IMG/VR virus record: IMGVR_UViG_2939142107_000001
Location: 26,843-90,842 of that record
Strand: one strand, 5' to 3'
From: a virus
Lineage: Duplodnaviria; Heunggongvirae; Uroviricota; Caudoviricetes
DNA: 64,000 bases
Shown: positions 1-30,433 of the stretch, in pieces
How the letters are laid out: each line of letters begins with the position of its first letter
Position numbering within the stretch: position 1 is the stretch's first letter
Notes under the pieces: model-generated
What the model saw: the letters and a program-made list of their open reading frames with translations, nothing else
Databases searched by the model: none
What the model was told of the DNA's origin: nothing
Position numbers and translations under genes: made by a program

Positions 1-2820
1 CTGCAAACAGCACGCACAATCGGCGGAGTGTCGTTCGATGGTAGTGCCAATATCGACCTGCCGGGCGTGAATAAAGCAGGTAATCAGAGCACTACCGGCA
101 ATGCTGCAACCGCTACGAAACTGCAAACAGCCCGCACAATCAACGGTGTTAAGTTTGATGGTTCTGCGAACATTTCGATACCAACAATTACGTCCAGAGG
201 GCGTGTTACTGCGCTCACCGATACAACACAAGGTGCTGCTACTGGATTGCAGATGTATGAGGCGTACAACAATAGCTACCCGACCGCGTATGGCAACGTA
301 TTGCACATGAAAGGTGCGAGTGCTGCTGGTGAGGGCGAGTTGCTTATTGGCTGGAGTGGTACGAGCGGTGCACATGCGCCGGTTTTCATTCGCTCCCGAA
401 GAGATCACACTGATGCGGCATGGTCAGCGTGGGCGCAGGTATATACATCAAGGGACTCCATTCCTGGTGTGAATGCCACTGGCAATCAGAATACAACTGG
501 CAATGCAGCAACTGCTACAAAACTACAGACGGCAAGAACTATCGGCGGAGTTAGCTTTGATGGTACTGCGAATATTAATTTACCTGGTGTTAACGTTGCG
601 GGTAATCAGAATACATCCGGTAACGCGGCTACAGCGACCAAGTTACAAACCGCTAGAACTATAAATGGGGTGTCGTTTGACGGTTCTAAAAACATTGAGC
701 TAACTCCAAGGTCTATAGGCACGATCAACTCAATAACAATGTCTTTTAGTGGTGGTGCTGGATGGTTCAAGCTGGCAACTGTAACCATGCCACAGGCCAG
801 TTCCGTGGTTTACATAAGCCTGATTGGTAGTTCTGGATATAATGTTAACTCCCCTATGCAGGCTGGTATATCTGAACTTGTTCTTCGTGCGGGAAATGGG
901 AATCCAAAAGGTCTTACTGGTGCGTTATGGCGACGGACATCGGTTGGATTTACTAATTTTGCATGGGTGAATACATCCGGTGATACCTATGATGTTTATG
1001 TTGAAATAGGTAATTTCGCCACGGGTGTAAATATCCAGTGGGATTATACCAGTAACGCCAGCGTAACGATTCATACATCACCATCTTATACAGCGAATAA
1101 ACCAACAGGCCTGACAGATGGAACTGTATATGTAATTTACAGTTCGCACATTAAACCGACCGCCACGGATGTCGGCGCATTACCAATAACCGGAGGAAAT
1201 CTCAACGGCGGTTTAACGGCTACTGGTGAGATCATTTCAAAATCGGCGAATGGTCTGCGTATTGCCTACGGAAACTACGGATTCTTTATCCGAAACGATG
1301 GTTCAAACACATATTTCATGTTGACCAATTCGGGTAACAGCCTGGGAACCTATAATAATTTAAGGCCGCTTATCATTAACAATGCCAATGGTACTGTTAC
1401 GATCGGTAATGGACTCAATGTTACTGGCGGCATCAATGGTAGTTTGAACGGTAATGCTGCAACTGCAACAAAACTGCAAACAGCACGCACAATAGGCGGA
1501 GTGTCATTCGATGGTAGTGCCAATATCGACCTGCCAGGTGTGAATAAAGCAGGTAATCAGAGCACTACTGGCAATGCTGCAACTGCAACAAAACTGCAAA
1601 CAGCACGCACAATCGGCGGAGTGTCGTTCGATGGTAGTGCCAATATCGACCTGCCGGGCGTGAATAAAACAGGTAATCAGAGCACTACCGGTAATGCAGC
1701 TACGGCTACCAAATTGCTAACAGCGCGTACCATTAATGGGGTTTCATTTGACGGTTCTGCGAATATTTCACTGTCACCAGCAAATATTGGTTGCCCGGCA
1801 TCTCCTACTGGTTGGTTAAAAACAGGTAATAACGGTGAGTCAATAACGACAGCTCAGTTAGTTACTTTGTTGCAAAATAATGGGGCATTCAATACGAAAG
1901 CATGGTTCGCTCGTTGTGCATGGTCGTATGCAACTAGTGCATCCATACCAGACAGTGAAACTGGTTGTGGCATTATTCCACTGGCGGGTGCTGTGATAGA
2001 AGTATTCAGCAATAATACCGACAATTACACTATTCGAATAACAACAGCCACGACGACAAGTGTCTCTGGTGCACTCACTAATGCGGAGTTTATCTATGTG
2101 TTTAACGTGTCTGGCAGCACAAGTTATTCACCTGGATGGCGCAGAGCGTATAACACTAAAAATAAACCTACTACTACTGACCTTGGCTTGAGCGATGAAA
2201 GTGGATACGTTGGGCGCCTGATAAGCACTAGGGTTTTCACGTCATCAGGTACGTACATCCCGACGCCAGGAACAAAACGGCTCAGGGTCACAATAACGGG
2301 CGGCGGTGGCGGAGGGGGCGGCTGCAAGGCTACATCCAATAATGAAACGTTTTTCGGTGCTGGCGGTGGGGCCGGTGGAACAATAATTTCAATAATGACC
2401 CCGACACAGAATAGTTATCCAGTCACTATCGGCGCAGGTGGGGCCGGTGGTGTTAGTGCGACGAACGGCACCAGGGGCGGGAATAGCGTATTCGCATCGT
2501 TAATTGCTCCTGGTGGCGCAGGCGGCGGGAAAGTGGGTGTTACAAACACAAACGGCGGTAACGGAGGTGTGCCGAGTACTGGCGATATCCGCATCACTGG
2601 TGGAGATGGAGGCGACGGTCAGTCCGGAAATATCAGCGTCAGCGGTGAAGGCGGAACATCGCACTGGGGCGGCGGTGGACGCGCAGGCGCTGGCGGTGGT
2701 GTTATCGGTAAAGCATATGGTTCAGGCGGAGGTGGCGCATACGATGCCGGTTATAGCGGAACCAGTATGACGGGCGGGAAAGGTGCTTCAGGGATTTGTA
2801 TTATCGAGGAGTTTGCATAA
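1..2820 (+). CDS. Tail fibre protein, 5' partial (reading frame open to window start); repeated phage tail-fibre motif and glycine-rich C-terminal domain
   Basis: 930-aa ORF in frame from nt 1; motif GNAATATKLQTARTIxGVSFDGSxNI recurs at least 7 times; C-terminus rich in GGGxGG runs; followed immediately by a Tfa-like gene. Confidence 0.85.
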   Translation: MQTARTIGGVSFDGSANIDLPGVNKAGNQSTTGNAATATKLQTARTINGVKFDGSANISIPTITSRGRVTALTDTTQGAATGLQMYEAYNNSYPTAYGNVLHMKGASAAGEGELLIGWSGTSGAHAPVFIRSRRDHTDAAWSAWAQVYTSRDSIPGVNATGNQNTTGNAATATKLQTARTIGGVSFDGTANINLPGVNVAGNQNTSGNAATATKLQTARTINGVSFDGSKNIELTPRSIGTINSITMSFSGGAGWFKLATVTMPQASSVVYISLIGSSGYNVNSPMQAGISELVLRAGNGNPKGLTGALWRRTSVGFTNFAWVNTSGDTYDVYVEIGNFATGVNIQWDYTSNASVTIHTSPSYTANKPTGLTDGTVYVIYSSHIKPTATDVGALPITGGNLNGGLTATGEIISKSANGLRIAYGNYGFFIRNDGSNTYFMLTNSGNSLGTYNNLRPLIINNANGTVTIGNGLNVTGGINGSLNGNAATATKLQTARTIGGVSFDGSANIDLPGVNKAGNQSTTGNAATATKLQTARTIGGVSFDGSANIDLPGVNKTGNQSTTGNAATATKLLTARTINGVSFDGSANISLSPANIGCPASPTGWLKTGNNGESITTAQLVTLLQNNGAFNTKAWFARCAWSYATSASIPDSETGCGIIPLAGAVIEVFSNNTDNYTIRITTATTTSVSGALTNAEFIYVFNVSGSTSYSPGWRRAYNTKNKPTTTDLGLSDESGYVGRLISTRVFTSSGTYIPTPGTKRLRVTITGGGGGGGGCKATSNNETFFGAGGGAGGTIISIMTPTQNSYPVTIGAGGAGGVSATNGTRGGNSVFASLIAPGGAGGGKVGVTNTNGGNGGVPSTGDIRITGGDGGDGQSGNISVSGEGGTSHWGGGGRAGAGGGVIGKAYGSGGGGAYDAGYSGTSMTGGKGASGICIIEEFA
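1474..1713 (+). repeat. Two tandem near-identical 120-bp in-frame direct repeats inside the tail-fibre gene; a third near-identical copy is at 1..~107
   Basis: ctgcaaacagcacgcacaat(a/c)ggcggagtgtc(a/g)ttcgatggtagtgccaatatcgacctgcc... seen at 1474 and 1594 and again at nt 1. Confidence 0.8.
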
Positions 2821-3230
2821 TGAATACGTCATATGCAGTTATTGAAAATGGGATGGTTGTGAATGTCATTGTCTGGGATGGCGAGGCTGAATTCACAGTG
2901 CCGGATAATCAGCAGCTCATTAATATTTCTGATATCAGTGAGCAGCCCGGAATCGGCTGGGTGTATTCAGACGGGGGATTTACTGCGCCACCCACTCCGG
3001 AACGTTCTCATGATGAACTGGTAGCTGACGCTGAACAGAAAAAAAAGTCGCTGATTGATACCGCAATGGCTTCCATTAGTCTTATTCAACTGAAATTACA
3101 GGCCGGACGGAATCTTACGCAGGCTGAAACCACCCGTCTTAACGCTGTGTTGGATTATATCGATGCGGTGACCGCAACGGATACCAGCACTGCACCAGAT
3201 GTCAATTGGCCAGCGTTCCCGGAGGCGTAG
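2820..3230 (+). CDS. Tail fibre assembly chaperone (Tfa/U-like)
   Basis: TAATG overlap with tail-fibre stop; N-terminal YAVIENGMVVNVIVWDG and C-terminal LNAVLDYIDAV...WPAFPE typical of Tfa proteins. Confidence 0.8.
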   Translation: MNTSYAVIENGMVVNVIVWDGEAEFTVPDNQQLINISDISEQPGIGWVYSDGGFTAPPTPERSHDELVADAEQKKKSLIDTAMASISLIQLKLQAGRNLTQAETTRLNAVLDYIDAVTATDTSTAPDVNWPAFPEA

Positions 3231-3648
3231 CCCATTAAAAAAATATCTGGAGCGCTGGAAGTAACGACTGGTTCCAGTGCATCCAGATAAGATGATTACT
3301 GTTCATGCTTCAAGAGCGAGCGCATACTGCATCCAGGCCAATCTAACTTTCATTCGACCAGAGTGTCACCTCTCAAAAGCATTTTTTAACTCTGGTCGTT
3401 CAGCCTTTTTGCCGCTCGCCTTATCCTCAAAAATTAGCTCACATCCTGCGCTTTCAAGGGCATTTCGTTGCTAAGCAGTGTTTTGTTCATTTGTTGATAC
3501 GCGTACATAGCCTATTAGCATATTTTCTACTCACTATCGTTATTTATAGCAAGCTGCGGATTTTGATTAACAGAAACCAGTGTGTGTGGAAATCACAAAG
3601 TGCATACCGTGCCCCAATGATGTTTTATTGAAAAGCGGGGGTACTTTA

Positions 3649-3930
3649 ATGTTTGATTTAACAATATTTTTTATAACCATCCTTGGAGGCGTGCATTCGT
3701 TTCTGAATGGGGTTCGTGAAAAACGTTACGAAGCGTCATGCAGGCAATTGATGGCCGAGTGTATTGCTGCCGTACTTGCAGGCTTTATAGGCATGTATTT
3801 CGCGGAATATAAGGGTATGGATGAAAGTCTTCAGAATTGCGTGACTATTATTTGCAGCATCAATAACAAGCTCATTCTTGAAAAGTCACAAAGGATTATC
3901 GATTCGTACCTCAATAGAAATGCCTCTTAA
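3649..3930 (+). CDS. Holin-like small membrane protein, paralog of the next gene
   Basis: ATG at 3649 after GCGGGGG; hydrophobic segments; pattern similarity to 3998..4327 product (ILGG..FL, AG..A, SINN/ASNN). Confidence 0.45.
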   Translation: MFDLTIFFITILGGVHSFLNGVREKRYEASCRQLMAECIAAVLAGFIGMYFAEYKGMDESLQNCVTIICSINNKLILEKSQRIIDSYLNRNAS

Positions 3931-3997
3931 GCAACAAATGACCGGTTGAGAAGTTACTTTGCATACCATTACCTCCTGACAACGTAGGAGGGAACTT

Positions 3998-4327
3998 GTG
4001 CTTGACACACAGGAATTAGCTCCAGTTGCTATTGCGTTCCTGCTTTCAGTAATTGGTGGGATAGGCACGTTCCTGATGGATGTCCGAGACGGTCGCCAGT
4101 CTGGCAATTTGTTGGGATTGGTTACGGAGATCTTTGTTGCAGTGACAGCTGGCGCGGTGGCGTACCTATTGGGGCAACACGAGGGCTGGGAGTTATCAAT
4201 TACGTACTTAATGGTAACGATAGCCAGCAATAACGGTCATGAGGTGATTTCAGGGATGAAACGAGTGAATATCGATAGCATTCTGAATGTTCTTACAAGT
4301 TTGGTGAAAAAGGGAGGCGGGAAATGA
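3998..4327 (+). CDS. lydA: Holin-like membrane protein (LydA-like by position)
   Basis: GTG start 8 nt after AGGAGG; 109 aa with TM segments; sits upstream of the hdf-darA operon; symbol by synteny and size only. Confidence 0.45.
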   Translation: MLDTQELAPVAIAFLLSVIGGIGTFLMDVRDGRQSGNLLGLVTEIFVAVTAGAVAYLLGQHEGWELSITYLMVTIASNNGHEVISGMKRVNIDSILNVLTSLVKKGGGK

Positions 4328-4767
4328 TTGGCTGGGGTGTATGCGTTCTTGCGTTAGCCTTAGCCGATCGCTGTTTGCTAAAACGCAAGGACATCACGCA
4401 TTTAGAACTTGGTGATGTGGAAATTAAACCGGGTTTCATCCGAGTGCCGTTCAAATACCGGTCTAAATTCCCGTTTTTGCGCGGCGCAACGGTCAGATAT
4501 TGGATCCGCGATGTTCAGAAGCCGACGACAGTGATTGAAGGCGAACAACGTTGTCTGACGTCGGCTGAACAGGGCGAAAACAGTGAATGGTTGTACATAC
4601 CCACTGAATATATGGGTATAGGAGATCGACTGTGGCATTTCAACGTCATGGTTACGCATGGCGACTCGTTCATTAACCCGTTGTATCGGATTTTCCCTGT
4701 TACTCAGCAAATCCGCAGAAGTTACGTAATAAATCTCGCACAGGATGTGTCAGATGACGAAAAATAA
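4324..4767 (+). CDS. lydB: LydB-like protein (antiholin position)
   Basis: ATG overlaps previous stop; 147 aa; assignment by synteny only. Confidence 0.4.
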   Translation: MIGWGVCVLALALADRCLLKRKDITHLELGDVEIKPGFIRVPFKYRSKFPFLRGATVRYWIRDVQKPTTVIEGEQRCLTSAEQGENSEWLYIPTEYMGIGDRLWHFNVMVTHGDSFINPLYRIFPVTQQIRRSYVINLAQDVSDDEK

Positions 4768-5356
4768 GTATGCAACGGTCGATTTTGACCAGGTTAATGA
4801 AAAGGGGCTGAAATCCCTTATCGCGGCGATCAATAAAACCGGGGTTACGGTAATTGAGGTTGACTCCAGCAACCGCGCAACAACGAAAGATGGCGTTAAA
4901 GTTAAAACCGCAAAGCTGGTTCTTAACGACGGACAAATTCTTGCCATACAGGTAAACGATACTGGCGATATATCGTCTGTGAAACTGAATGGAAAAGCTA
5001 TTCCTAACGCTCAGTCGCCGGATATCAAGACGCTTGGTACCGTCATGGGACAAGCGGCCCGCAAAAACTCCGCAAAATTCCAGAAATCACTGATCGCCAA
5101 AGCGAAGCGTGTTGCCAATCCGGTAGACAAGAAACCGGCAGTTAAATCCAACTTTCAGCGCCTGCAAGAAGCAAAACAGCGGAATGCTCAGGTGGTTGCC
5201 GCTTATAAGTCCGCGCAGAATTCGGTGTCTTTCAATCAACAGCAGATCACTGATTTGCGGGCGAAGCTGGATAAGGAGACGGGCCGACTCAATAACGAAA
5301 AGGCACGGAATGGCGAACTCAAACGTCGTCTTAAGCAACTGAAAGCAGGAAATTAA
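4754..5356 (+). CDS. hdf: Hdf-like protein
   Basis: AGGA 8 nt before ATG 4754; shares KNSAKFQ-containing segment with the downstream 639-aa protein; first gene of the dar-type operon. Confidence 0.55.
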   Translation: MTKNKYATVDFDQVNEKGLKSLIAAINKTGVTVIEVDSSNRATTKDGVKVKTAKLVLNDGQILAIQVNDTGDISSVKLNGKAIPNAQSPDIKTLGTVMGQAARKNSAKFQKSLIAKAKRVANPVDKKPAVKSNFQRLQEAKQRNAQVVAAYKSAQNSVSFNQQQITDLRAKLDKETGRLNNEKARNGELKRRLKQLKAGN

Positions 5357-5357
5357 C

Positions 5358-7277
5358 ATGGAACAGTTCAATATCAATAAAGGGGTGACGATCAAGCCCG
5401 GGCTTGACGTGCTTCCCCCGCCAGTGACTGATGATGAATATCGCGCATTAATGGCCGGTGAGGACCGCTATCTGATGACGGAATCCAATACCCTGGAGGA
5501 AATCGAGGCTACGTTCTTCTATGACACGCCGATCCACTGGTGTGCTACGGATTTACTGGAGGCGATTAGTTCTACTCGTTTGCAGTTACACCGGACCATG
5601 CAGGCATTTGTCCGGGCATTGAACCAGAAGCTGAATGGTACCGGAATCTCTGCGGGGAGTGATAAAACGGGGGATGTGGCCCAGAACGGTGCACGCGCGA
5701 TCGGCGGTGCTGAAATTGGCCGGGCACGTAACGTTAACGGGCTGCCGGTCCTGCCAGCCATTATTCCGCTCAGTGATGGTCAGACTATCAGCATTTTGTT
5801 TCATAGCCCGACAGCGGAAAACCGGATCACCAATAGCGATACGCTGGTTGCTTTCCAGTTCTTACTGAATAAAAAAGACGTTACTCACACCGTTGCTCCG
5901 ATGAGTGGACGTGATATGACGCTGGCGCAGGTCACCATGAAACTTGCCAACCTTGCAGAGAAAAACTCGGCAAAATTCCAGCGTGCGCAGAAGAAGAAAA
6001 AAGCCCTGGTTGATGAAATAACCCAACTACAGGCTGACAGTGACCAGAAAGAGGATGCCATGAGCGACCTCGCGGATCAGGTGGCAGCGGTAGAAGGCCA
6101 GAAGGCAGATCTGGAGCAGAAAATTAACGCGGTTGCTTCGGAAGCGGATTCTCTTTATCAAGAAAATGAGCGTTTGCAGGCGGAGATTGATCAGCTCAAT
6201 CGTACTGGTGGGCGCGATACCATTGCTCCAGCGGGGATGACTGGTGGGCACTCTCGCGCGCTAACGGATCGCCTTGCCAGTATCAAAAATCGTATGCATA
6301 TGGACGGGGAAGCGACGCTCAGTAATGGTGCATCAATGAAGCAATTCATTGGGGATGGCGAAGGGTATATCCAGTTAACCGATCCGGATGGCAGCGTATA
6401 CATGATCAAGGCTAAATCCATACAGGGTGTGGACATGGCAGATGCGATCGGCAAGCTGTTTAAAGCCTATAAAGCGGGTAATGTATCGGAATATTTGGTC
6501 CAGCCAGAAGAACATAAACCAGAAAACGTCGAACCTGAACCAGCGGAGGATACCGGTAGCTCTTCGCCTGAACCAGAAGTCTCTGTAGGTGCATATCGAT
6601 ATGCCCTGCAAATGCGTCCGGCGGCCCCTGGCGCGATACCTGAAGGTAACAAAGCAATTCTTCCGCGCCCTGATGAAGGTGACCCGTATTATGAATATGC
6701 ACGCTACGGCATTGCTACTTACGATACCCCGCTTTCTGATCAGCAAATGAGTGAGTACGACCTGAAGTTATTGCCTCGCGAGGATTCTTTCGACTTCCTG
6801 GCGAAGACACTTACTAATGGTCCGTTTGGCAAATATGCACAAAAAGCTCTGGAGCTAGCCACCAGCTCACCAGACGAGTTCCGCGTAATGCTGAAAACTC
6901 AGTTTCAAAAAACTTTCCCCAATATTGCGTTTCCAGGGGGCGCTGGCATCGAGAAAATGGTGCAGAGCATGATCAATGCATTGCAGGCCGAAGTCGGTGA
7001 GATTACTCAACCAGAACCGGTCCCGGCACAGCCTGATGAAACGGTTAGCGAAGCAGATGCAGAGGCTAATAAAGCCATTGAATATCTCAATAGCGTGATG
7101 GATATGCAAAGCACTGACATGGCGGAGATCCGTAACGCCCGGGGTAATGTCCGGGAAGCGATTGCAGCCCTTCAGGCTGCCGGGCGTTTTGAGGAAAACG
7201 AAGAGCTGGTTAATGGCGCAGCTCGCCACCTGGCTGATCTGCTGGTAGCAATCCAGAAAGCGGGGGTAGCGGCATGA
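5358..7277 (+). CDS. darA: DarA-like antirestriction / internal head protein
   Basis: 639 aa, size and operon position (hdf-darA-ddrA-ddrB) as recalled for P1; coiled-coil central region. Confidence 0.6.
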   Translation: MEQFNINKGVTIKPGLDVLPPPVTDDEYRALMAGEDRYLMTESNTLEEIEATFFYDTPIHWCATDLLEAISSTRLQLHRTMQAFVRALNQKLNGTGISAGSDKTGDVAQNGARAIGGAEIGRARNVNGLPVLPAIIPLSDGQTISILFHSPTAENRITNSDTLVAFQFLLNKKDVTHTVAPMSGRDMTLAQVTMKLANLAEKNSAKFQRAQKKKKALVDEITQLQADSDQKEDAMSDLADQVAAVEGQKADLEQKINAVASEADSLYQENERLQAEIDQLNRTGGRDTIAPAGMTGGHSRALTDRLASIKNRMHMDGEATLSNGASMKQFIGDGEGYIQLTDPDGSVYMIKAKSIQGVDMADAIGKLFKAYKAGNVSEYLVQPEEHKPENVEPEPAEDTGSSSPEPEVSVGAYRYALQMRPAAPGAIPEGNKAILPRPDEGDPYYEYARYGIATYDTPLSDQQMSEYDLKLLPREDSFDFLAKTLTNGPFGKYAQKALELATSSPDEFRVMLKTQFQKTFPNIAFPGGAGIEKMVQSMINALQAEVGEITQPEPVPAQPDETVSEADAEANKAIEYLNSVMDMQSTDMAEIRNARGNVREAIAALQAAGRFEENEELVNGAARHLADLLVAIQKAGVAA

Positions 7278-7639
7278 CACTATCAGCTATTGAGTTAATG
7301 GACCTCAGCGACAAGTTGGATTCTCTGATGTCCAAAGCTGCTACCGCGAGTGGCATGGAGTTGCTGGATATCAGCGATGAAATTGACCAGATCATGCAAC
7401 AGATGGGGTACGGCGCGTCCGGCGGCGGTAGTGGCGAGGAAAAACAACCTTCGGTACATGATGGTGTGCCAAAACTGGTTGCTGATTTCCTGGCTGATAA
7501 ATTCGTCGATCAGAGCACCGATGCATTTATCGGTACGTTGCAGGACTTGAGTCAATATGTTGGCACATACATCGATCTGGACCAGGTTAAACAGCACACG
7601 GCGGCATGGATAGCCGCCAACATTAAAGAGGCAGCATAA
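7274..7639 (+). CDS. ddrA: DdrA-like protein
   Basis: 121 aa, ATGA overlap with darA; synteny. Confidence 0.5.
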   Translation: MTLSAIELMDLSDKLDSLMSKAATASGMELLDISDEIDQIMQQMGYGASGGGSGEEKQPSVHDGVPKLVADFLADKFVDQSTDAFIGTLQDLSQYVGTYIDLDQVKQHTAAWIAANIKEAA

Positions 7640-7651
7640 GGCGTAACAGGG

Positions 7652-10639
7652 ATGAGCTTAAGCGATCAGGTGGTAATGGCCACCAGCATAGAAACGCTGA
7701 TCGAGCTGCTAAAAAACCTGCCCAATTACGGGCGGGTTTCGTATGTGGTGACAGCGAAGGGAGACGAGGTAAAAACAGCGTTTGATATCGTCGATGCCTC
7801 AGCTCTTTTGGTATCCAATACTCTGGACGGGAAAATTAACCCTGACTATCCCCAGGAACTTCAGCCGCGCGACCGGACCCGCGCATCCAATCTTCTTCAG
7901 GTCAACCAGATATCCAAGGATTTGCGTCCTGCCCAGCTTACCGATTCCGGTTTATCCAGCCATGGCGCGCCGATAATTGGTGAGGACAATGCCGTTGAGT
8001 CAGGTAATGGACGGACCATGGGGATCATCAAAGCCTATCAGGACGGCAATGCGGATCGGTATCGTGAGTACCTGATTGATCATGCGACCGAATTCGGCAT
8101 ACGACCTGAAAAGGTTGAATCAATGGCGGCTCCGGTACTGGTGCGCCGACGGTTAACTAAGGTTGACCGCGTTCAGTTTGCCAAGGACTCAAATATTTCT
8201 GATCTTCAGGAAATGGCAGCCAGTGAAAAGGCTTTTGTTGATGCTGACAGCATAACTCCGGCGATGATGGCGCTGTTTAACCCATCAGAAAGTGGAGATC
8301 TGCTTAGCCGCAGTAATGACGCGTTTATTCGCGGATTCATGACGCAAGTTGGTGCCACACAGGCTGCTGGCCTTGTAACGGAAGATGGGCGACCAACACG
8401 GCAACTTGTAGACCGTATACAAAACGCGATCTTTGCCAAGGCATATAAGGATGCGCGCCTGGTAAGGATGGTTGCAGAAGAACCTGATCCGGATATGCGT
8501 AATGTTCTGACGGCGCTTAATGCGGCAGCCAATGATTTTGTCCAGATGCAGGCTTTGTCAGGAGAAGCGCACAAGCAGGCTGTGACAACTATTGTTGATG
8601 GCATTGAGACAGCGGATAGCCTCGATAAAAAGGCGCTGGCGGCATTGAAAGATGCGGTAGACCTGGTAAGGCAATCGAAGGAGTCAGGCCAGCATATTAC
8701 CGATGTTATTGCTCAGGGGGATATGTTCAGCGAAACGGCCCCGGAAGTGAAAGCACTCGCGTTGTTTATCGTCGCGAATAACCGTAGCGCGAAGCGTATG
8801 GCCACCGCCTTTAAGTTGATGGCGCAACGTATCAATGATGAGTTACAGCACCAGGGCCAGGCGCTCGGGGATATGTTTGGCGGCGGCGATGTGTCGTTAC
8901 AGGATATCCTTCGCCAGGTGTCTCAGGAACTGGAAAACGAAGGCATGCAAGGGATATCCGGCGGTCTTTTCGAGTCCGTTTCCGGCGGTAGCTACAACGG
9001 TGTTGCTCCGTATACCAGTTTGCTATTACATCGGGCATCCGGCATCAAAGACATTATTCATCTGATCAGGCTGCTTTCCCGCACAGATCCCCAGGATGAA
9101 CAGCTTGTACAAGTGCTTGCGCATTTTGTTCGAATGCCTGTTGCCGACGTGAAAAAATGGTGCCGATTATTCGGTATCAGCAATTCGTTACTTCGCGGCT
9201 TGTTAAATCACGCATCCTCCCTTGGGCGCGATGGCTTTGATGAGATAGCGCAGGCGATAAAAAACGGAGATATGCCACCAGCTATTGACTGGTTTTCCAT
9301 TCGCCCAACCAGGGTGAAAGCATTCCTTAGCGCGGCGCATACGGCATCACCATTGGCAGAAATGGTTCAGAGGCTGTCGCTCATATTCACAGATCATACC
9401 GCGTTGGGTGATCTGACTCTTGACGAGATGAAAGAAGCATCCATTCAGTGGGCCGATCAACAAAATGAGGTTAACTCTGACTTCTTGCCAGCATTCAGGA
9501 AGGCCGTTAGTAAAGCGGATGATGCCCGTGGAATTCTGAAGGCATTTAAGGCATTGCAAAGTCGGGTTAATAAACATGTCGGTGATATCGATGGGGTAAC
9601 GGCGGAAGGCAGGGATATCCTTAAAGAGCACGGCATAACGCCAGAGTTTATTGATGAGATCAGGACTGATATGCAGCGTGAGGTCGTATCGTCCCTGCAA
9701 ATCGTAGCCAGAGCGTTGGCGGATGCTAATCCGAAGAGTGCGGCCATTGTTAACCAGGTTATTGGTGATATTGAAGCATCGGAGGGCATGGGGGCGCTGA
9801 AACTCTTCCTTTCGCGAGCGTTTAATCCTAACGGCAATATTCTCCCTGGCATTATTGGTGAGGCTAAAAAGTATGTCAGCGAAGAAGAACTTGAGCATCT
9901 TGACCAACTACTTAAGCGATTCTCATATAACCCGCAGACACGCTGGCAAATGAATCAGCGAAGTATGGGTTCGGTCCACGAGAAAGTGTTATCTGCCATG
10001 AACAGTGCGATCGCCAACTCATCCGTATCTGAAGAAAAAGCTCTTGAGTGGGCCGACTCTTTTATCACGGAAGAAGTGGAAGAAGCCCGCGCTGGACAGA
10101 ATGGTGGGATAAACCTGCGCAAGGAACTTGCTGATATTTATCGCCTGACTGGCGGGAAAATATCGACCTTATCAAAGGTGGTTCACCACCAGGGAAGGGC
10201 ATATGCAAATCTAAATGGTGTTGTTGCTGTCAATTTGAACGATGAAAATGCAAGAGCACTGTGGCACGAGCTGGGTCATCATCTTGAGTACAGTAACCCC
10301 GGTTTGTTAGAGAAAGCCCGGTCATTCCTGAAGGCCAATGTTGAAGGGGGTAAGCTATCTTTCGTCAATATCGGTGGGCGTGGCAAGCCTGAATGGTGCT
10401 TCAGATCTCGATTGAGTAATATTTATATGGCGAAGGTATACCCGCCAGTCTCAGTGAGTAACTCCGGGAAAATTCGGCAGAAATCACCGACTATTTCCAA
10501 AACGTCAGCAACGGAAGTATTCTCTATGGCTCTTCAGTTGTATCATGACAAAGAGGCCGCTGCCGCATCACTGATGAATGGTGACGGATTGCTGGAACTG
10601 TTATTAGGTGTGGCAAAGGAGCTAAATAATGCAGATTAA
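7652..10639 (+). CDS. ddrB: DdrB-like large protein
   Basis: 995 aa ORF following ddrA; synteny and size. Confidence 0.55.
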   Translation: MSLSDQVVMATSIETLIELLKNLPNYGRVSYVVTAKGDEVKTAFDIVDASALLVSNTLDGKINPDYPQELQPRDRTRASNLLQVNQISKDLRPAQLTDSGLSSHGAPIIGEDNAVESGNGRTMGIIKAYQDGNADRYREYLIDHATEFGIRPEKVESMAAPVLVRRRLTKVDRVQFAKDSNISDLQEMAASEKAFVDADSITPAMMALFNPSESGDLLSRSNDAFIRGFMTQVGATQAAGLVTEDGRPTRQLVDRIQNAIFAKAYKDARLVRMVAEEPDPDMRNVLTALNAAANDFVQMQALSGEAHKQAVTTIVDGIETADSLDKKALAALKDAVDLVRQSKESGQHITDVIAQGDMFSETAPEVKALALFIVANNRSAKRMATAFKLMAQRINDELQHQGQALGDMFGGGDVSLQDILRQVSQELENEGMQGISGGLFESVSGGSYNGVAPYTSLLLHRASGIKDIIHLIRLLSRTDPQDEQLVQVLAHFVRMPVADVKKWCRLFGISNSLLRGLLNHASSLGRDGFDEIAQAIKNGDMPPAIDWFSIRPTRVKAFLSAAHTASPLAEMVQRLSLIFTDHTALGDLTLDEMKEASIQWADQQNEVNSDFLPAFRKAVSKADDARGILKAFKALQSRVNKHVGDIDGVTAEGRDILKEHGITPEFIDEIRTDMQREVVSSLQIVARALADANPKSAAIVNQVIGDIEASEGMGALKLFLSRAFNPNGNILPGIIGEAKKYVSEEELEHLDQLLKRFSYNPQTRWQMNQRSMGSVHEKVLSAMNSAIANSSVSEEKALEWADSFITEEVEEARAGQNGGINLRKELADIYRLTGGKISTLSKVVHHQGRAYANLNGVVAVNLNDENARALWHELGHHLEYSNPGLLEKARSFLKANVEGGKLSFVNIGGRGKPEWCFRSRLSNIYMAKVYPPVSVSNSGKIRQKSPTISKTSATEVFSMALQLYHDKEAAAASLMNGDGLLELLLGVAKELNNAD

Positions 10640-28902: not shown

Positions 28903-28936
28903 ATAACTTCGTATAATGTATGCTATACGAAGTTAT
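28903..28936. other. loxP: loxP recombination site
   Basis: exact ATAACTTCGTATA-ATGTATGC-TATACGAAGTTAT, about 410 bp upstream of cre start. Confidence 0.98.

Positions 28937-29238: not shown

Positions 29239-30433
<1,195 letters not shown>

What the first reader, a model, noticed from the sequence alone, without database searches (positions are those of the whole stretch)
1..3648. Tail-fibre locus lacks cin and the invertible C-segment; tail-fibre gene carries tandem 120-bp repeats
Seen: tail-fibre and Tfa genes are followed by about 420 bp of non-coding DNA and then holin-like genes. No recombinase gene and no inverted alternative tail-fibre/Tfa copies are present. Three near-identical 120-bp units lie inside the fibre gene (nt 1, 1474, 1594). 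Established: P1 switches host range by Cin-mediated inversion of the C-segment. Inference: this phage has a fixed host-range determinant, but intragenic repeats could allow recombinational length variation of the fibre.
Basis: partly seen in the sequence, partly recalled or inferred. Interest (0 to 1): 0.45.

Follow-up and report, generated by a model that had tools for sequence, protein, structure and literature searches.

The report
P1-like tail-fibre locus, decayed cin switch
This is the tail-fibre region of a P1-like E. coli phage-plasmid in which an old 2.5-kb deletion destroyed the Cin DNA-inversion host-range switch, leaving one long fibre gene whose 40-residue repeats vary in number between natural isolates; both features are ordinary, and the loss of the switch is already described.

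Summary
The observation largely holds, but the "420 bp of non-coding DNA" is not empty. It contains a dead 5' stub of cin on the minus strand (3321-3521): a stop at codon 17, an 11-nt deletion, and truncation near codon 70.

Compared with pSBF45b, which has the same fibre type with an intact switch, the window lacks 2.53 kb. The missing DNA holds tfa', Sv', cixL and the 3' two-thirds of cin. A single orphan cixR survives in the fibre gene, about 510 bp upstream of the window. A near-identical complete plasmid has no other invertase and no second cix. The same junction occurs in 43 PLSDB plasmids and 72 of 5,426 complete E. coli genomes, so assembly collapse is excluded. Venturini et al. (2019) reported this truncated cin in pSvP1.

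The fibre is an intact 1,566-aa ORF with seven 40-aa units in three clusters. Three units are 92-94% identical in DNA. Natural relatives that are 99-99.9% identical differ by clean 40- or 80-aa indels in every cluster, and whole domains between clusters come and go.

The finding is an ordinary, known kind of variation and of low interest.

The parts
1..2820 (+). 3' 2,820 nt (codons 628-1566 plus stop) of the tail-fibre gene S. The full ORF is 1,566 aa and starts 1,880 nt upstream of the window.
   Evidence: The first ~2 kb of the gene region is 94.8% identical to P1 R and Sc. The identical 1,566-aa protein is seen on 29 contigs.
1..96 (+). Repeat unit 1 (40-aa unit, aa 620-659), truncated by the window edge. 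It is 92-94% nt identical to units 5 and 6.
97..216 (+). Repeat unit 2, the terminal half-unit of cluster 1. Only the ~27-aa core is conserved.
217..498 (+). Inter-repeat domain K1, shared with P1 Sv. It is absent from some relatives (pSvP1, pSBF45b).
   Evidence: alignment.
499..738 (+). Repeat cluster 2 (units 3 and 4), with 52-72% nt identity to the other units.
739..1449 (+). Inter-repeat domain K2. It includes a T4 gp34-trimerisation-like / Mu S-like segment at 1144-1377.
   Evidence: Pfam PF21446, E=2.8e-28. PDB 5yvq and 4uxe.
1450..1809 (+). Repeat cluster 3 (units 5, 6 and 7; 120 nt each). Units 5 and 6 are 94% identical.
1729..2196 (+). Domain K3, similar to the Mu S / S' C-terminal region. 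It is a 132-aa module absent from many otherwise 98%-identical fibres.
   Evidence: PDB 8ju3..
2242..2808 (+). Glycine-rich C-terminal domain, the presumed distal tip.
   Evidence: Pfam PF21722, E=2.3e-11. Weak full-length match to the cyanophage Pam3 fibre 7yfw, E=0.004.
2820..3230 (+). tfa, the tail-fibre assembly chaperone (136 aa). Its ATG overlaps the fibre stop codon (TAATG).
   Evidence: PF02413, E=6e-22. phrog_188. Sequence.
3231..3289 (.). Spacer homologous to the centre of the invertible segment (between tfa and tfa') of pSBF45b.
   Evidence: Window 2600-3289 matches L005 4514-5199 at 90%.
3290..3320 (.). Deletion junction: 25-31 nt of filler of unassigned origin.
3321..3521 (-). cin pseudogene stub. 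The start codon is at 3519-3521. It has TAG at codon 17, an 11-nt deletion at 3381/3382, and is truncated near codon 70 of 186.
3432..3503 (.). Sequence corresponding to the P1 recombinational enhancer inside cin. It is retained (68 of 72 nt) but has nothing to act on.
   Evidence: P1 annotation. Identity.
3522..3648 (.). Divergent cin/lydC promoter region, P1-like. It contains a weak cix-like sequence at 3567-3592 (4 of 18 consensus mismatches, core AG).
3649..3930 (+). lydC, a holin-family gene.
   Evidence: PF16083. Annotation.
3998..4767 (+). lydA holin (3998-4327) and lydB antiholin (4324-4767).
   Evidence: PF16083 and PF16084, E=5e-101.

Best explanation
The region is the R-S-tfa tail-fibre operon and its junction with the lyd/dar operon in a P1-like (IncY, Punavirus-type) E. 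coli phage-plasmid.

An ancestor carried a P1-style Cin/cix invertible segment with this glycine-rich-tipped fibre on one side. pSBF45b still has that arrangement. One illegitimate deletion of about 2.5 kb removed tfa', Sv', cixL and cin codons ~70-186. The remaining cin stub then decayed further, with an 11-nt deletion and, in this lineage, a stop at codon 17.

The phage therefore makes one fibre type. With one cix site and no invertase it cannot switch by inversion.

The fibre is a chain of globular modules separated by clusters of a 40-aa connector repeat. Some units are still 92-94% identical in DNA. Unequal homologous recombination or slippage between units adds and removes units. Recombination between clusters deletes or swaps the modules that lie between them.

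Fibre diversity in this lineage therefore arises at population level by general recombination, not by programmed inversion.

Shown: the anatomy, the deletion, the absence of Cin and of a second cix, and the natural repeat-number and module variants. Inferred: the recombination mechanism, its rate, and any effect on host range.
For: Identity of the window:
- Nt 1-20000 are 100% identical to NZ_CP029103.1.
- The fibre N-terminal region and the lyd/dar region are 94-97% identical to P1 and P7.

The cin stub and the deletion:
- The stub is shown. PGAP (NCBI's annotation pipeline) annotates it as a pseudogene.
- Window 2600-3289 matches pSBF45b L005 4514-5199, and window 3321-3700 matches L005 7730-8120. 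So L005 5200-7729, which holds tfa', Sv', cixL and the cin 3' end, is missing.
- P1, P7 and pSBF45b each have cixR and cixL. Every locus with the truncated cin has cixR only.
- The near-identical plasmid has one perfect cixR. The next best match has 9 of 26 mismatches. The window itself has none within 3 mismatches.
- All six relatives with the stub that were examined share the same truncation point and an indel of about 11 nt (10-12 nt) at the same place. This points to one ancestral event.
- The same junction is present in 43 PLSDB plasmids and 72 of 5,426 complete E. coli genomes.

The repeats:
- Clean 40- or 80-aa indels occur between proteins 99-99.9% identical, for example P0035 and P0094, which differ by 1 mismatch plus one 40-aa indel.
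- Short fibres exist in which cluster 1 is joined directly to cluster 3 or to the Gly-rich domain (L012, L013).
Against: - The window differs from NZ_CP029103.1 by one IS5. About 27 kb of its own replicon and the host chromosome were not seen, so a trans-acting invertase elsewhere cannot be formally excluded. Even so, only one cix site would be available.
- pSBF45b is 84-90% identical in the flanks. It is a model of the ancestor, not the ancestor itself.
- The 25-31 nt at the junction have no identified source.
- Repeat variation is shown between isolates, not within a clone. No rate and no phenotype are known.
Confidence: 0.88

Rival explanations
1. Assembly artefact: the inverted duplicate halves of an invertible segment were collapsed, or the tandem repeats were mis-assembled, so cin and the alternative fibre only appear to be missing.
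For: Invertible segments and 120-bp tandem repeats are hard to assemble from short reads. RefSeq flags the fibre and tfa as 'incomplete' pseudogenes.
Against: - The same junction, base for base, is present in 43 complete plasmids and 72 complete genomes from different laboratories, hosts and countries.
- The breakpoint lies inside cin, in unique sequence, and carries extra decay mutations. A collapse of inverted repeats would not produce that.
- The fibre ORF is uninterrupted, and the identical protein occurs on 29 contigs.
Confidence: 0.01
2. The locus never had an inversion switch. It is an ancestrally simple fibre-tfa cassette that happens to sit next to the lyd genes.
For: Many phages have a single fibre-tfa pair. 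The fibre distal part is unrelated to P1 Sv over most of its length.
Against: - A cin 5' stub with its promoter region and enhancer sequence lies in the P1 position and orientation.
- A perfect cixR sits at the P1 position in the fibre gene.
- A relative has the same fibre type inside an intact cix-flanked segment with cin.
Confidence: 0.03
3. The switch still works in trans. A host or co-resident Din-family invertase (for example Pin of the e14 prophage) recombines the orphan cixR with a cryptic cix-like site.
For: - cixR is perfect and the enhancer sequence is 68 of 72 nt retained.
- A weak cix-like sequence lies at 3567-3592.
- From memory, not tested here: Din invertases cross-complement.
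Against: - The best secondary site has 4 of 18 consensus mismatches and a core dinucleotide AG, which does not match the TT/AA core of cix.
- There is no alternative fibre end to bring into frame. Any such inversion would only truncate the fibre.
- cixR is explained by coding constraint, since it encodes LAVIQYLGLRE within the conserved fibre.
Confidence: 0.02
4. The 40-aa repeats are purely structural shaft elements kept similar by selection on the protein. They play no particular part in generating variation.
For: The ~27-aa core is conserved at protein level in all seven units while four units have drifted to 52-72% nt identity. That is the pattern expected from protein-level constraint.
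Against: - Units 1, 5 and 6 are 92-94% identical in DNA, including synonymous sites. This indicates recent duplication or gene conversion.
- In-register unit gains and losses occur in all three clusters between fibres that are otherwise 99-99.9% identical.
- Module deletions have their joints inside units.
Confidence: 0.06

Closest known systems
Bacteriophage P1 / P7 C-segment with Cin invertase (S-U-U'-Sv'-cixL-cin), Din family of DNA-inversion host-range switches (also Mu Gin/G-segment, p15B Min, e14 Pin)
   Same: - Same genomic position and gene order: R, S (constant part 95% identical to P1), then lydC-lydA-lydB-odaE/hdf-darA.
- Identical cixR.
- The cin start, promoter region and enhancer sequence are present.
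   Different: cin is a dead stub. cixL, Sv' and U' are deleted. The expressed Sv part is 3.3 kb instead of 1.6 kb and ends in a Gly-rich domain. No inversion is possible.
pSvP1 (MN510446) and other P1-like plasmids described by Venturini et al. 2019 (PMC6906374) with a 'partial invertase orf' and no complete C-segment
   Same: pSvP1 has the same tfa-to-cin-stub junction (96.8% identity over 771 nt), the same truncation point, and a Gly-rich fibre of the same family. The paper states that the switch is presumably lost.
   Different: The fibre module content differs: 1,394 aa in pSvP1 against 1,566 aa here, with different unit counts. The window's stub carries an extra nonsense codon. The paper does not discuss the repeats.
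pSBF45b (NZ_CP067234.1), a P1-like plasmid with the Gly-rich fibre type inside an intact switch
   Same: The fibre C-terminal part, tfa and downstream spacer are 90% identical. The cin 5' end and lydC region are 84% identical.
   Different: It retains tfa', Sv', cixL and a full 186-aa cin. Its fibre is shorter, at 1,077 aa with 4 units.
Repeat- and motif-mediated plasticity of phage tail fibres, for example T-even gp37/gp38 motif recombination and duplications, and mosaic P1/P2/Mu/lambda fibre genes (recalled from the literature, not re-read here)
   Same: Conserved short motifs inside fibre genes serve as joints for duplication, deletion and module exchange, changing fibre length and tip.
   Different: Here the unit is a 40-aa (120-nt) connector with no Pfam model. 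It occurs in three clusters, and in-register copy-number polymorphism is documented in all three.

Membership tests
Din-family DNA-inversion host-range switch (P1 Cin / C-segment type) | Intact serine invertase gene (~186 aa, catalytic N-domain plus C-terminal HTH) | tested here: not met
   Only codons 1 to about 70 remain, with TAG at codon 17 and an 11-nt deletion. No other Cin-like hit at E<=10 in the window or in the near-identical whole plasmid.
Din-family DNA-inversion host-range switch (P1 Cin / C-segment type) | Two cix crossover sites in inverted orientation flanking the segment | tested here: not met
   One perfect cixR, about 510 nt upstream of the window. No cixL: the next best match has 9 of 26 mismatches.
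Din-family DNA-inversion host-range switch (P1 Cin / C-segment type) | Alternative, oppositely oriented fibre 3' end and chaperone (Sv', U') | tested here: not met
   No inverted repeats of at least 25 nt in the whole locus. The only inverted pair in the window's first 6 kb is a 20-nt, 80% match. The corresponding 2.53 kb of pSBF45b is absent.
Din-family DNA-inversion host-range switch (P1 Cin / C-segment type) | Recombinational enhancer within the 5' part of the invertase gene | tested here: met
   68 of 72 nt identical to the annotated P1 enhancer. It is a relic without partners.
P1-like (Punavirus-type, IncY) phage-plasmid tail-fibre operon | R gene, S with the P1 constant N-terminal part, then a chaperone, next to lydC-lydA-lydB-darA | tested here: met
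   94.8% nt identity to P1 over 2,068 nt of R and Sc. 94-97% identity over the lyd/dar region. IncY replicon typing.
Caudovirales tail-fibre assembly protein (Caudo_TAP, PF02413) | Score above the Pfam gathering threshold, and position immediately downstream of the fibre gene | tested here: met
   78.6 bits against a cutoff of 22.1. The start codon overlaps the fibre stop codon.
Glycine-rich-domain fibre tips (Gly_rich_2, PF21722) | Score above the Pfam gathering threshold at the C-terminus | tested here: met
   44.6 bits against a cutoff of 24.3, aa 1375-1563.
Intragenic tandem-repeat copy-number polymorphism | Units similar enough in DNA for homologous recombination, and in-register unit-number variants among close relatives | tested here: met
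   Three units are 92-94% identical. 40- and 80-aa indels occur between proteins 99-99.9% identical, in all three clusters.
Intragenic tandem-repeat copy-number polymorphism | Variation arising within a clone at measurable frequency | not testable with these tools
   Needs sequencing reads or PCR from cultures.

The most novel reading that the evidence does not exclude
The 120-bp connector repeats might act as a fast recombinational 'accordion', perhaps stimulated by the phage's own Ref/RecA-dependent recombination function. On this reading, fibre-length and knob-content variants would arise within a single lysogen population at useful frequency, and lineages that lost Cin would have swapped programmed inversion for repeat-driven host-range diversification.
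Probability: 0.1. Interest if true: 0.5.

Novelty: new member of a known kind. Interest (0 to 1): 0.2.

Why it matters
The practical value is small.
- It shows that a recognisable sub-lineage of P1-like phage-plasmids has a permanently fixed fibre. This lineage is present in about 1.3% of complete E. coli genomes and includes antibiotic-resistance carriers.
- It indicates that RefSeq's 'incomplete' pseudogene calls for the fibre and tfa are probably over-cautious.
- It shows that fibre length in this lineage varies in quanta of 40 residues.

These points are useful for annotation, for predicting the host range of these transducing elements, and for engineering P1-type fibres. They do not change what is known about the biology of DNA-inversion switches or tail fibres.

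Tried and rejected
- Rfam scan of nt 1-4400 at E<=1 gave no RNA family.
- The promoter/terminator scan of 2700-4100 gave no more sites than shuffled sequence.
- The source of the 25-31 nt junction filler was sought in P1, P7, pSBF45b and H8 plasmid A. Only chance-level 9-12-mers were found.
- The 40-aa repeat was scanned against Pfam at E<=1 (no family). The whole fibre was scanned against NCBIfam (none). The Pfam Phage_fiber_2 hits lie in the P1 constant part, not in these repeats.
- No PDB sequence match covers the repeat itself.
- I tried to find the exact source record through the IS5 junction. No PLSDB record has this backbone with the IS5 at that place at 100% identity.
- The phage collection holds no record with this fibre-tfa-stub arrangement over more than 45% of the 6-kb query.
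- Structure prediction was considered and not run. The homologues retrieved are at least 84% identical, so they would give a shallow alignment, and a monomer model of a trimeric fibre would be unreliable.
- The Ur-lambda and D6-like papers were read for comparable repeats or switch loss. They added nothing specific.
Full report
**What the window is**

The first 20 kb of the window are 100% identical to the reverse strand of NZ_CP029103.1 (E. coli AR437 plasmid unnamed1, 89,643 bp, IncY, non-mobilizable). Window nt 1 corresponds to record nt 75544. The rest of the window is also identical, apart from one extra 1,195-bp IS5.

The backbone is P1-like. From about nt 3321-3382 onward (P7 and JL22 from 3321, P1 from 3382) the window is 94-97% identical to P1, P7, SJ46 and RCS47 across lydC-lydA-lydB-hdf/odaE-darA. 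Upstream of the window, the R gene and the constant part of the fibre gene are 94.8% identical to P1.

**Checking the observation**

The fibre ORF is open from nt 1, in frame 1, to the stop codon at 2818-2820. In the full record it is an uninterrupted 1,566-aa gene that starts 1,880 nt before the window with the P1 S N-terminus MNDVTVVTSVTYP. The window therefore begins at codon 628.

tfa (2820-3230, 136 aa) overlaps the fibre stop codon (TAATG) and scores 78.6 bits for Caudo_TAP. A 418-bp gap follows (3231-3648). Next come lydC (3649-3930), lydA (3998-4327) and lydB (4324-4767).

No inverted copies of fibre or tfa sequence exist. The only inverted repeat reported in 1-6000 is a 20-nt, 80% pair, and none of at least 25 nt exists across the whole locus.

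The repeats are real. Nt 1-176 matches 1474-1649 at 87% and 1594-1769 at 89%. Tandem Repeats Finder (TRF) reports period 120, 2.3-2.7 copies and a score up to 447. The coordinates and the description therefore hold.

Alignment with P1 and P7 shows that window ~3321-3521 is the 5' end of cin on the minus strand, with its start codon at 3519-3521. A tblastn search with P1 Cin finds aa 1-49 (90% identity, E=8e-24) and aa 50-74 in a second frame. It finds nothing else at E<=10 in the window or in the rest of NZ_CP029103.1.

The stub has three lesions:
- TAG at codon 17.
- An 11-nt deletion at 3381/3382.
- Truncation near codon 70 of 186.

RefSeq's own annotation already lists a 'recombinase family protein' pseudogene (frameshifted, internal stop, missing C-terminus) at record 72024-72192, which is window 3353-3521. 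The sequence corresponding to the P1 recombinational enhancer is retained at 68 of 72 nt (window 3432-3503). Nt 3522-3648 are the P1-like cin/lydC divergent promoter region.

**How the switch was lost**

pSBF45b (NZ_CP067234.1, locus L005) carries a fibre of the same Gly-rich type and the same tfa, but inside an intact switch. It has tfa' and Sv' on the opposite strand, cixR and cixL, and a full 186-aa cin.

Window 2600-3289 aligns to L005 4514-5199 at 90%, and window 3321-3700 aligns to L005 7730-8120 at 84%. Relative to that arrangement the window therefore lacks L005 5200-7729, a stretch of 2.53 kb. That stretch holds tfa', Sv', cixL and the 3' two-thirds of cin. The junction (3290-3320) is 25-31 nt of filler whose source I could not identify. 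Neither endpoint is a cix site, so the deletion was illegitimate rather than Cin-mediated (inference).

The left crossover site survives. A sequence identical to P1 cixR (TTATCCAATACCTTGGTTTAAGAGAA) lies in the fibre gene at record 76052-76077, about 510 nt upstream of the window. There it encodes the conserved LAVIQYLGLRE. The next best match to cixR anywhere in the plasmid has 9 of 26 mismatches. The best match to a degenerate Din-family consensus is a weak site in the cin promoter region (window 3567-3592) with an AG core that is incompatible with the TT/AA core of cix. The window itself has no cix within 3 mismatches.

P1, P7 and pSBF45b each have both cix sites. All six other loci with the stub that I fetched have cixR only.

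**Not an artefact, and not new**

A 771-nt probe across tfa, the junction and the stub matches over at least 80% of its length in 43 PLSDB plasmids and in 72 of 5,426 complete E. coli genomes. These come from dogs, humans, pigs, poultry, cattle and sewage in several countries.

All relatives examined share the same truncation point and an indel of about 11 nt (10-12 nt) at the same place. One has 18 extra nt at the junction. The codon-17 stop is seen only in the window and one other plasmid. This pattern points to a single old deletion followed by further decay.

For comparison, 434 plasmids carry at least 80% of a cin-like gene, so the intact switch is the common state.

One member of the stub group, pSvP1 (MN510446), was described by Venturini et al. 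2019. [quoted passage not shown] A survey of 77 P1-like elements also lists lydC-cin-Sv'-U'-U-S as one of eight hypervariable regions (PMC9603915).

**The fibre and its repeats**

The fibre is built as follows:

| Segment | Description |
|---|---|
| Constant part | P1 Sc-like N-terminal part |
| K0 | About 135-aa module absent from P1 |
| Cluster 1 | Two repeat units |
| K1 | Shared with P1 Sv |
| Cluster 2 | Two repeat units |
| K2 | Includes a T4 gp34-trimerisation-like / Mu S-like segment (Pfam PF21446, E=2.8e-28; PDB 5yvq, 4uxe) |
| Cluster 3 | Three repeat units |
| K3 | Similar to part of Mu S/S' (PDB 8ju3) |
| Tip | Gly_rich_2 domain (PF21722) |

Each repeat unit is 40 aa, GNAATATKLQTARTIGGVSFDGSANIDLPGVNKAGNQSTT. 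The last unit of each cluster keeps only the ~27-aa core. No Pfam or NCBIfam model covers the unit.

In window coordinates the units are -23..96, 97-216, 499-618, 619-738, 1450-1569, 1570-1689 and 1690-1809. Units 1, 5 and 6 are 92-94% identical in DNA. The others are 52-72% identical despite 60-87% protein identity. The similar units therefore reflect recent duplication or gene conversion, not only selection on the protein.

**Does repeat number vary?**

Yes. Among fetched relatives at 93-96% overall identity, cluster 1 has 2 units here, 3 in NZ_CP116167.1 and 4 in NZ_CP020522.1, with exact 40- and 80-aa gaps.

NZ_CP023381.1 has five tandem units joined directly to the Gly-rich domain (1,023 aa). 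NZ_CP029365.1 joins cluster 1 to the last unit of cluster 3 (1,060 aa), and its last 419 aa are 99.5% identical to ours.

A database search returned 4,942 homologues. The top 120 clusters fall into length classes 1394, 1434, 1474, 1514, 1555 and 1566 aa. Their cluster sizes are 2-4, 2-3 and 2-5 units.

Pairwise comparisons show clean in-register indels between proteins that are otherwise 99-99.9% identical. P0035 and P0094 differ by one mismatch plus one 40-aa indel. P0028 and P0119 differ by five mismatches plus two 40-aa indels. Indels occur in all three clusters. Our protein differs from the common 1,474-aa form (98% identity) by one unit fewer in cluster 1 and by the extra 132-aa K3 module.

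Whether it happens within a clone, how fast, and with what effect on adsorption is not known.

**Comparison with known systems**

The locus works as an ordinary single fibre plus chaperone. It is a relic of the Din-family Cin/C-segment switch, not a member. Three of the four defining features are absent (intact invertase, two inverted cix sites, alternative Sv'/U'), and only the enhancer sequence remains.

Fibre mosaicism and motif-mediated rearrangement are long established for P1, P2, Mu, lambda and T-even fibres (recalled from the literature, not re-read here). The 40-aa copy-number polymorphism seen here is a clear but unsurprising example.

**Caveats**

The window's own replicon differs from NZ_CP029103.1 by an IS5, and about 27 kb of it was not seen. 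The host chromosome was also not available. pSBF45b is a model for the ancestor, not the ancestor. No structure was predicted for the repeat.

**Verdict**

The feature is an already-described kind of decay of the P1 host-range switch, combined with an ordinary repeat-polymorphic fibre gene. Interest is low.

Noticed in passing
window 29239-30433: A complete 1,195-bp IS5 (ends GGAAGGTGCGAATAAG...) flanked by a TTAG duplication. It is absent from the otherwise identical NZ_CP029103.1. It sits about 300 bp from loxP (28903-28936), between the cre/loxP side and coi-c1. Two 119-kb duck E. coli plasmids match this left junction at 99.7%.
   Followed up: partly
L012 (NZ_CP029365.1) 4778-6734, matching window 1567-3523: The block of fibre C-terminus, tfa and cin stub is 99.1% identical in a plasmid with a different P1-related backbone. 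That plasmid has a different fibre N-terminus (71% identity), no lydC, and replicon rep_cluster_1704. The homology stops at the cin start codon. The dead stub has therefore travelled with the fibre module by recombination between phage-plasmid lineages.
   Followed up: partly
window 1-3230 (record 72315-77425): RefSeq/PGAP marks the fibre ('missing C-terminus') and tfa ('missing N-terminus') as pseudogenes. An older annotation calls only the last 482 aa a 'glycine-rich domain-containing protein'. Yet the 1,566-aa ORF is uninterrupted, the identical protein is found on 29 contigs, and other records annotate a 136-aa tfa. These are probably annotation artefacts of a mosaic gene.
   Followed up: partly
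window 2242-2808: The Gly-rich C-terminal domain aligns over its full length, weakly and with strong compositional bias (E=0.004), to the fibre protein of cyanophage Pam3 (PDB 7yfw, 7ypx). It follows a Mu S-like domain that is missing in many close relatives, so the Gly-rich domain is likely to be the true distal tip.
   Followed up: no
window 3567-3592: A weak cix-like sequence (TTAACAGAAACCAGTGTGTGTGGAAA) lies in the cin promoter region and is conserved in P1. It may correspond to the quasi-cix site reported upstream of cin in the old P1 literature (from memory, not checked).
   Followed up: no
NZ_CP168949.1 2848148-2848918 (E. coli IH5 chromosome): One 100% match to the tfa-to-cin-stub junction lies on a 5.18-Mb chromosome rather than a plasmid. 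This suggests either an integrated P1-like element or an assembly that joined plasmid and chromosome.
   Followed up: no
NZ_OQ420476.1 24763-24814: Another P1-like plasmid keeps only the first 52 nt of cin. The switch has therefore been lost independently more than once, with different breakpoints.
   Followed up: no
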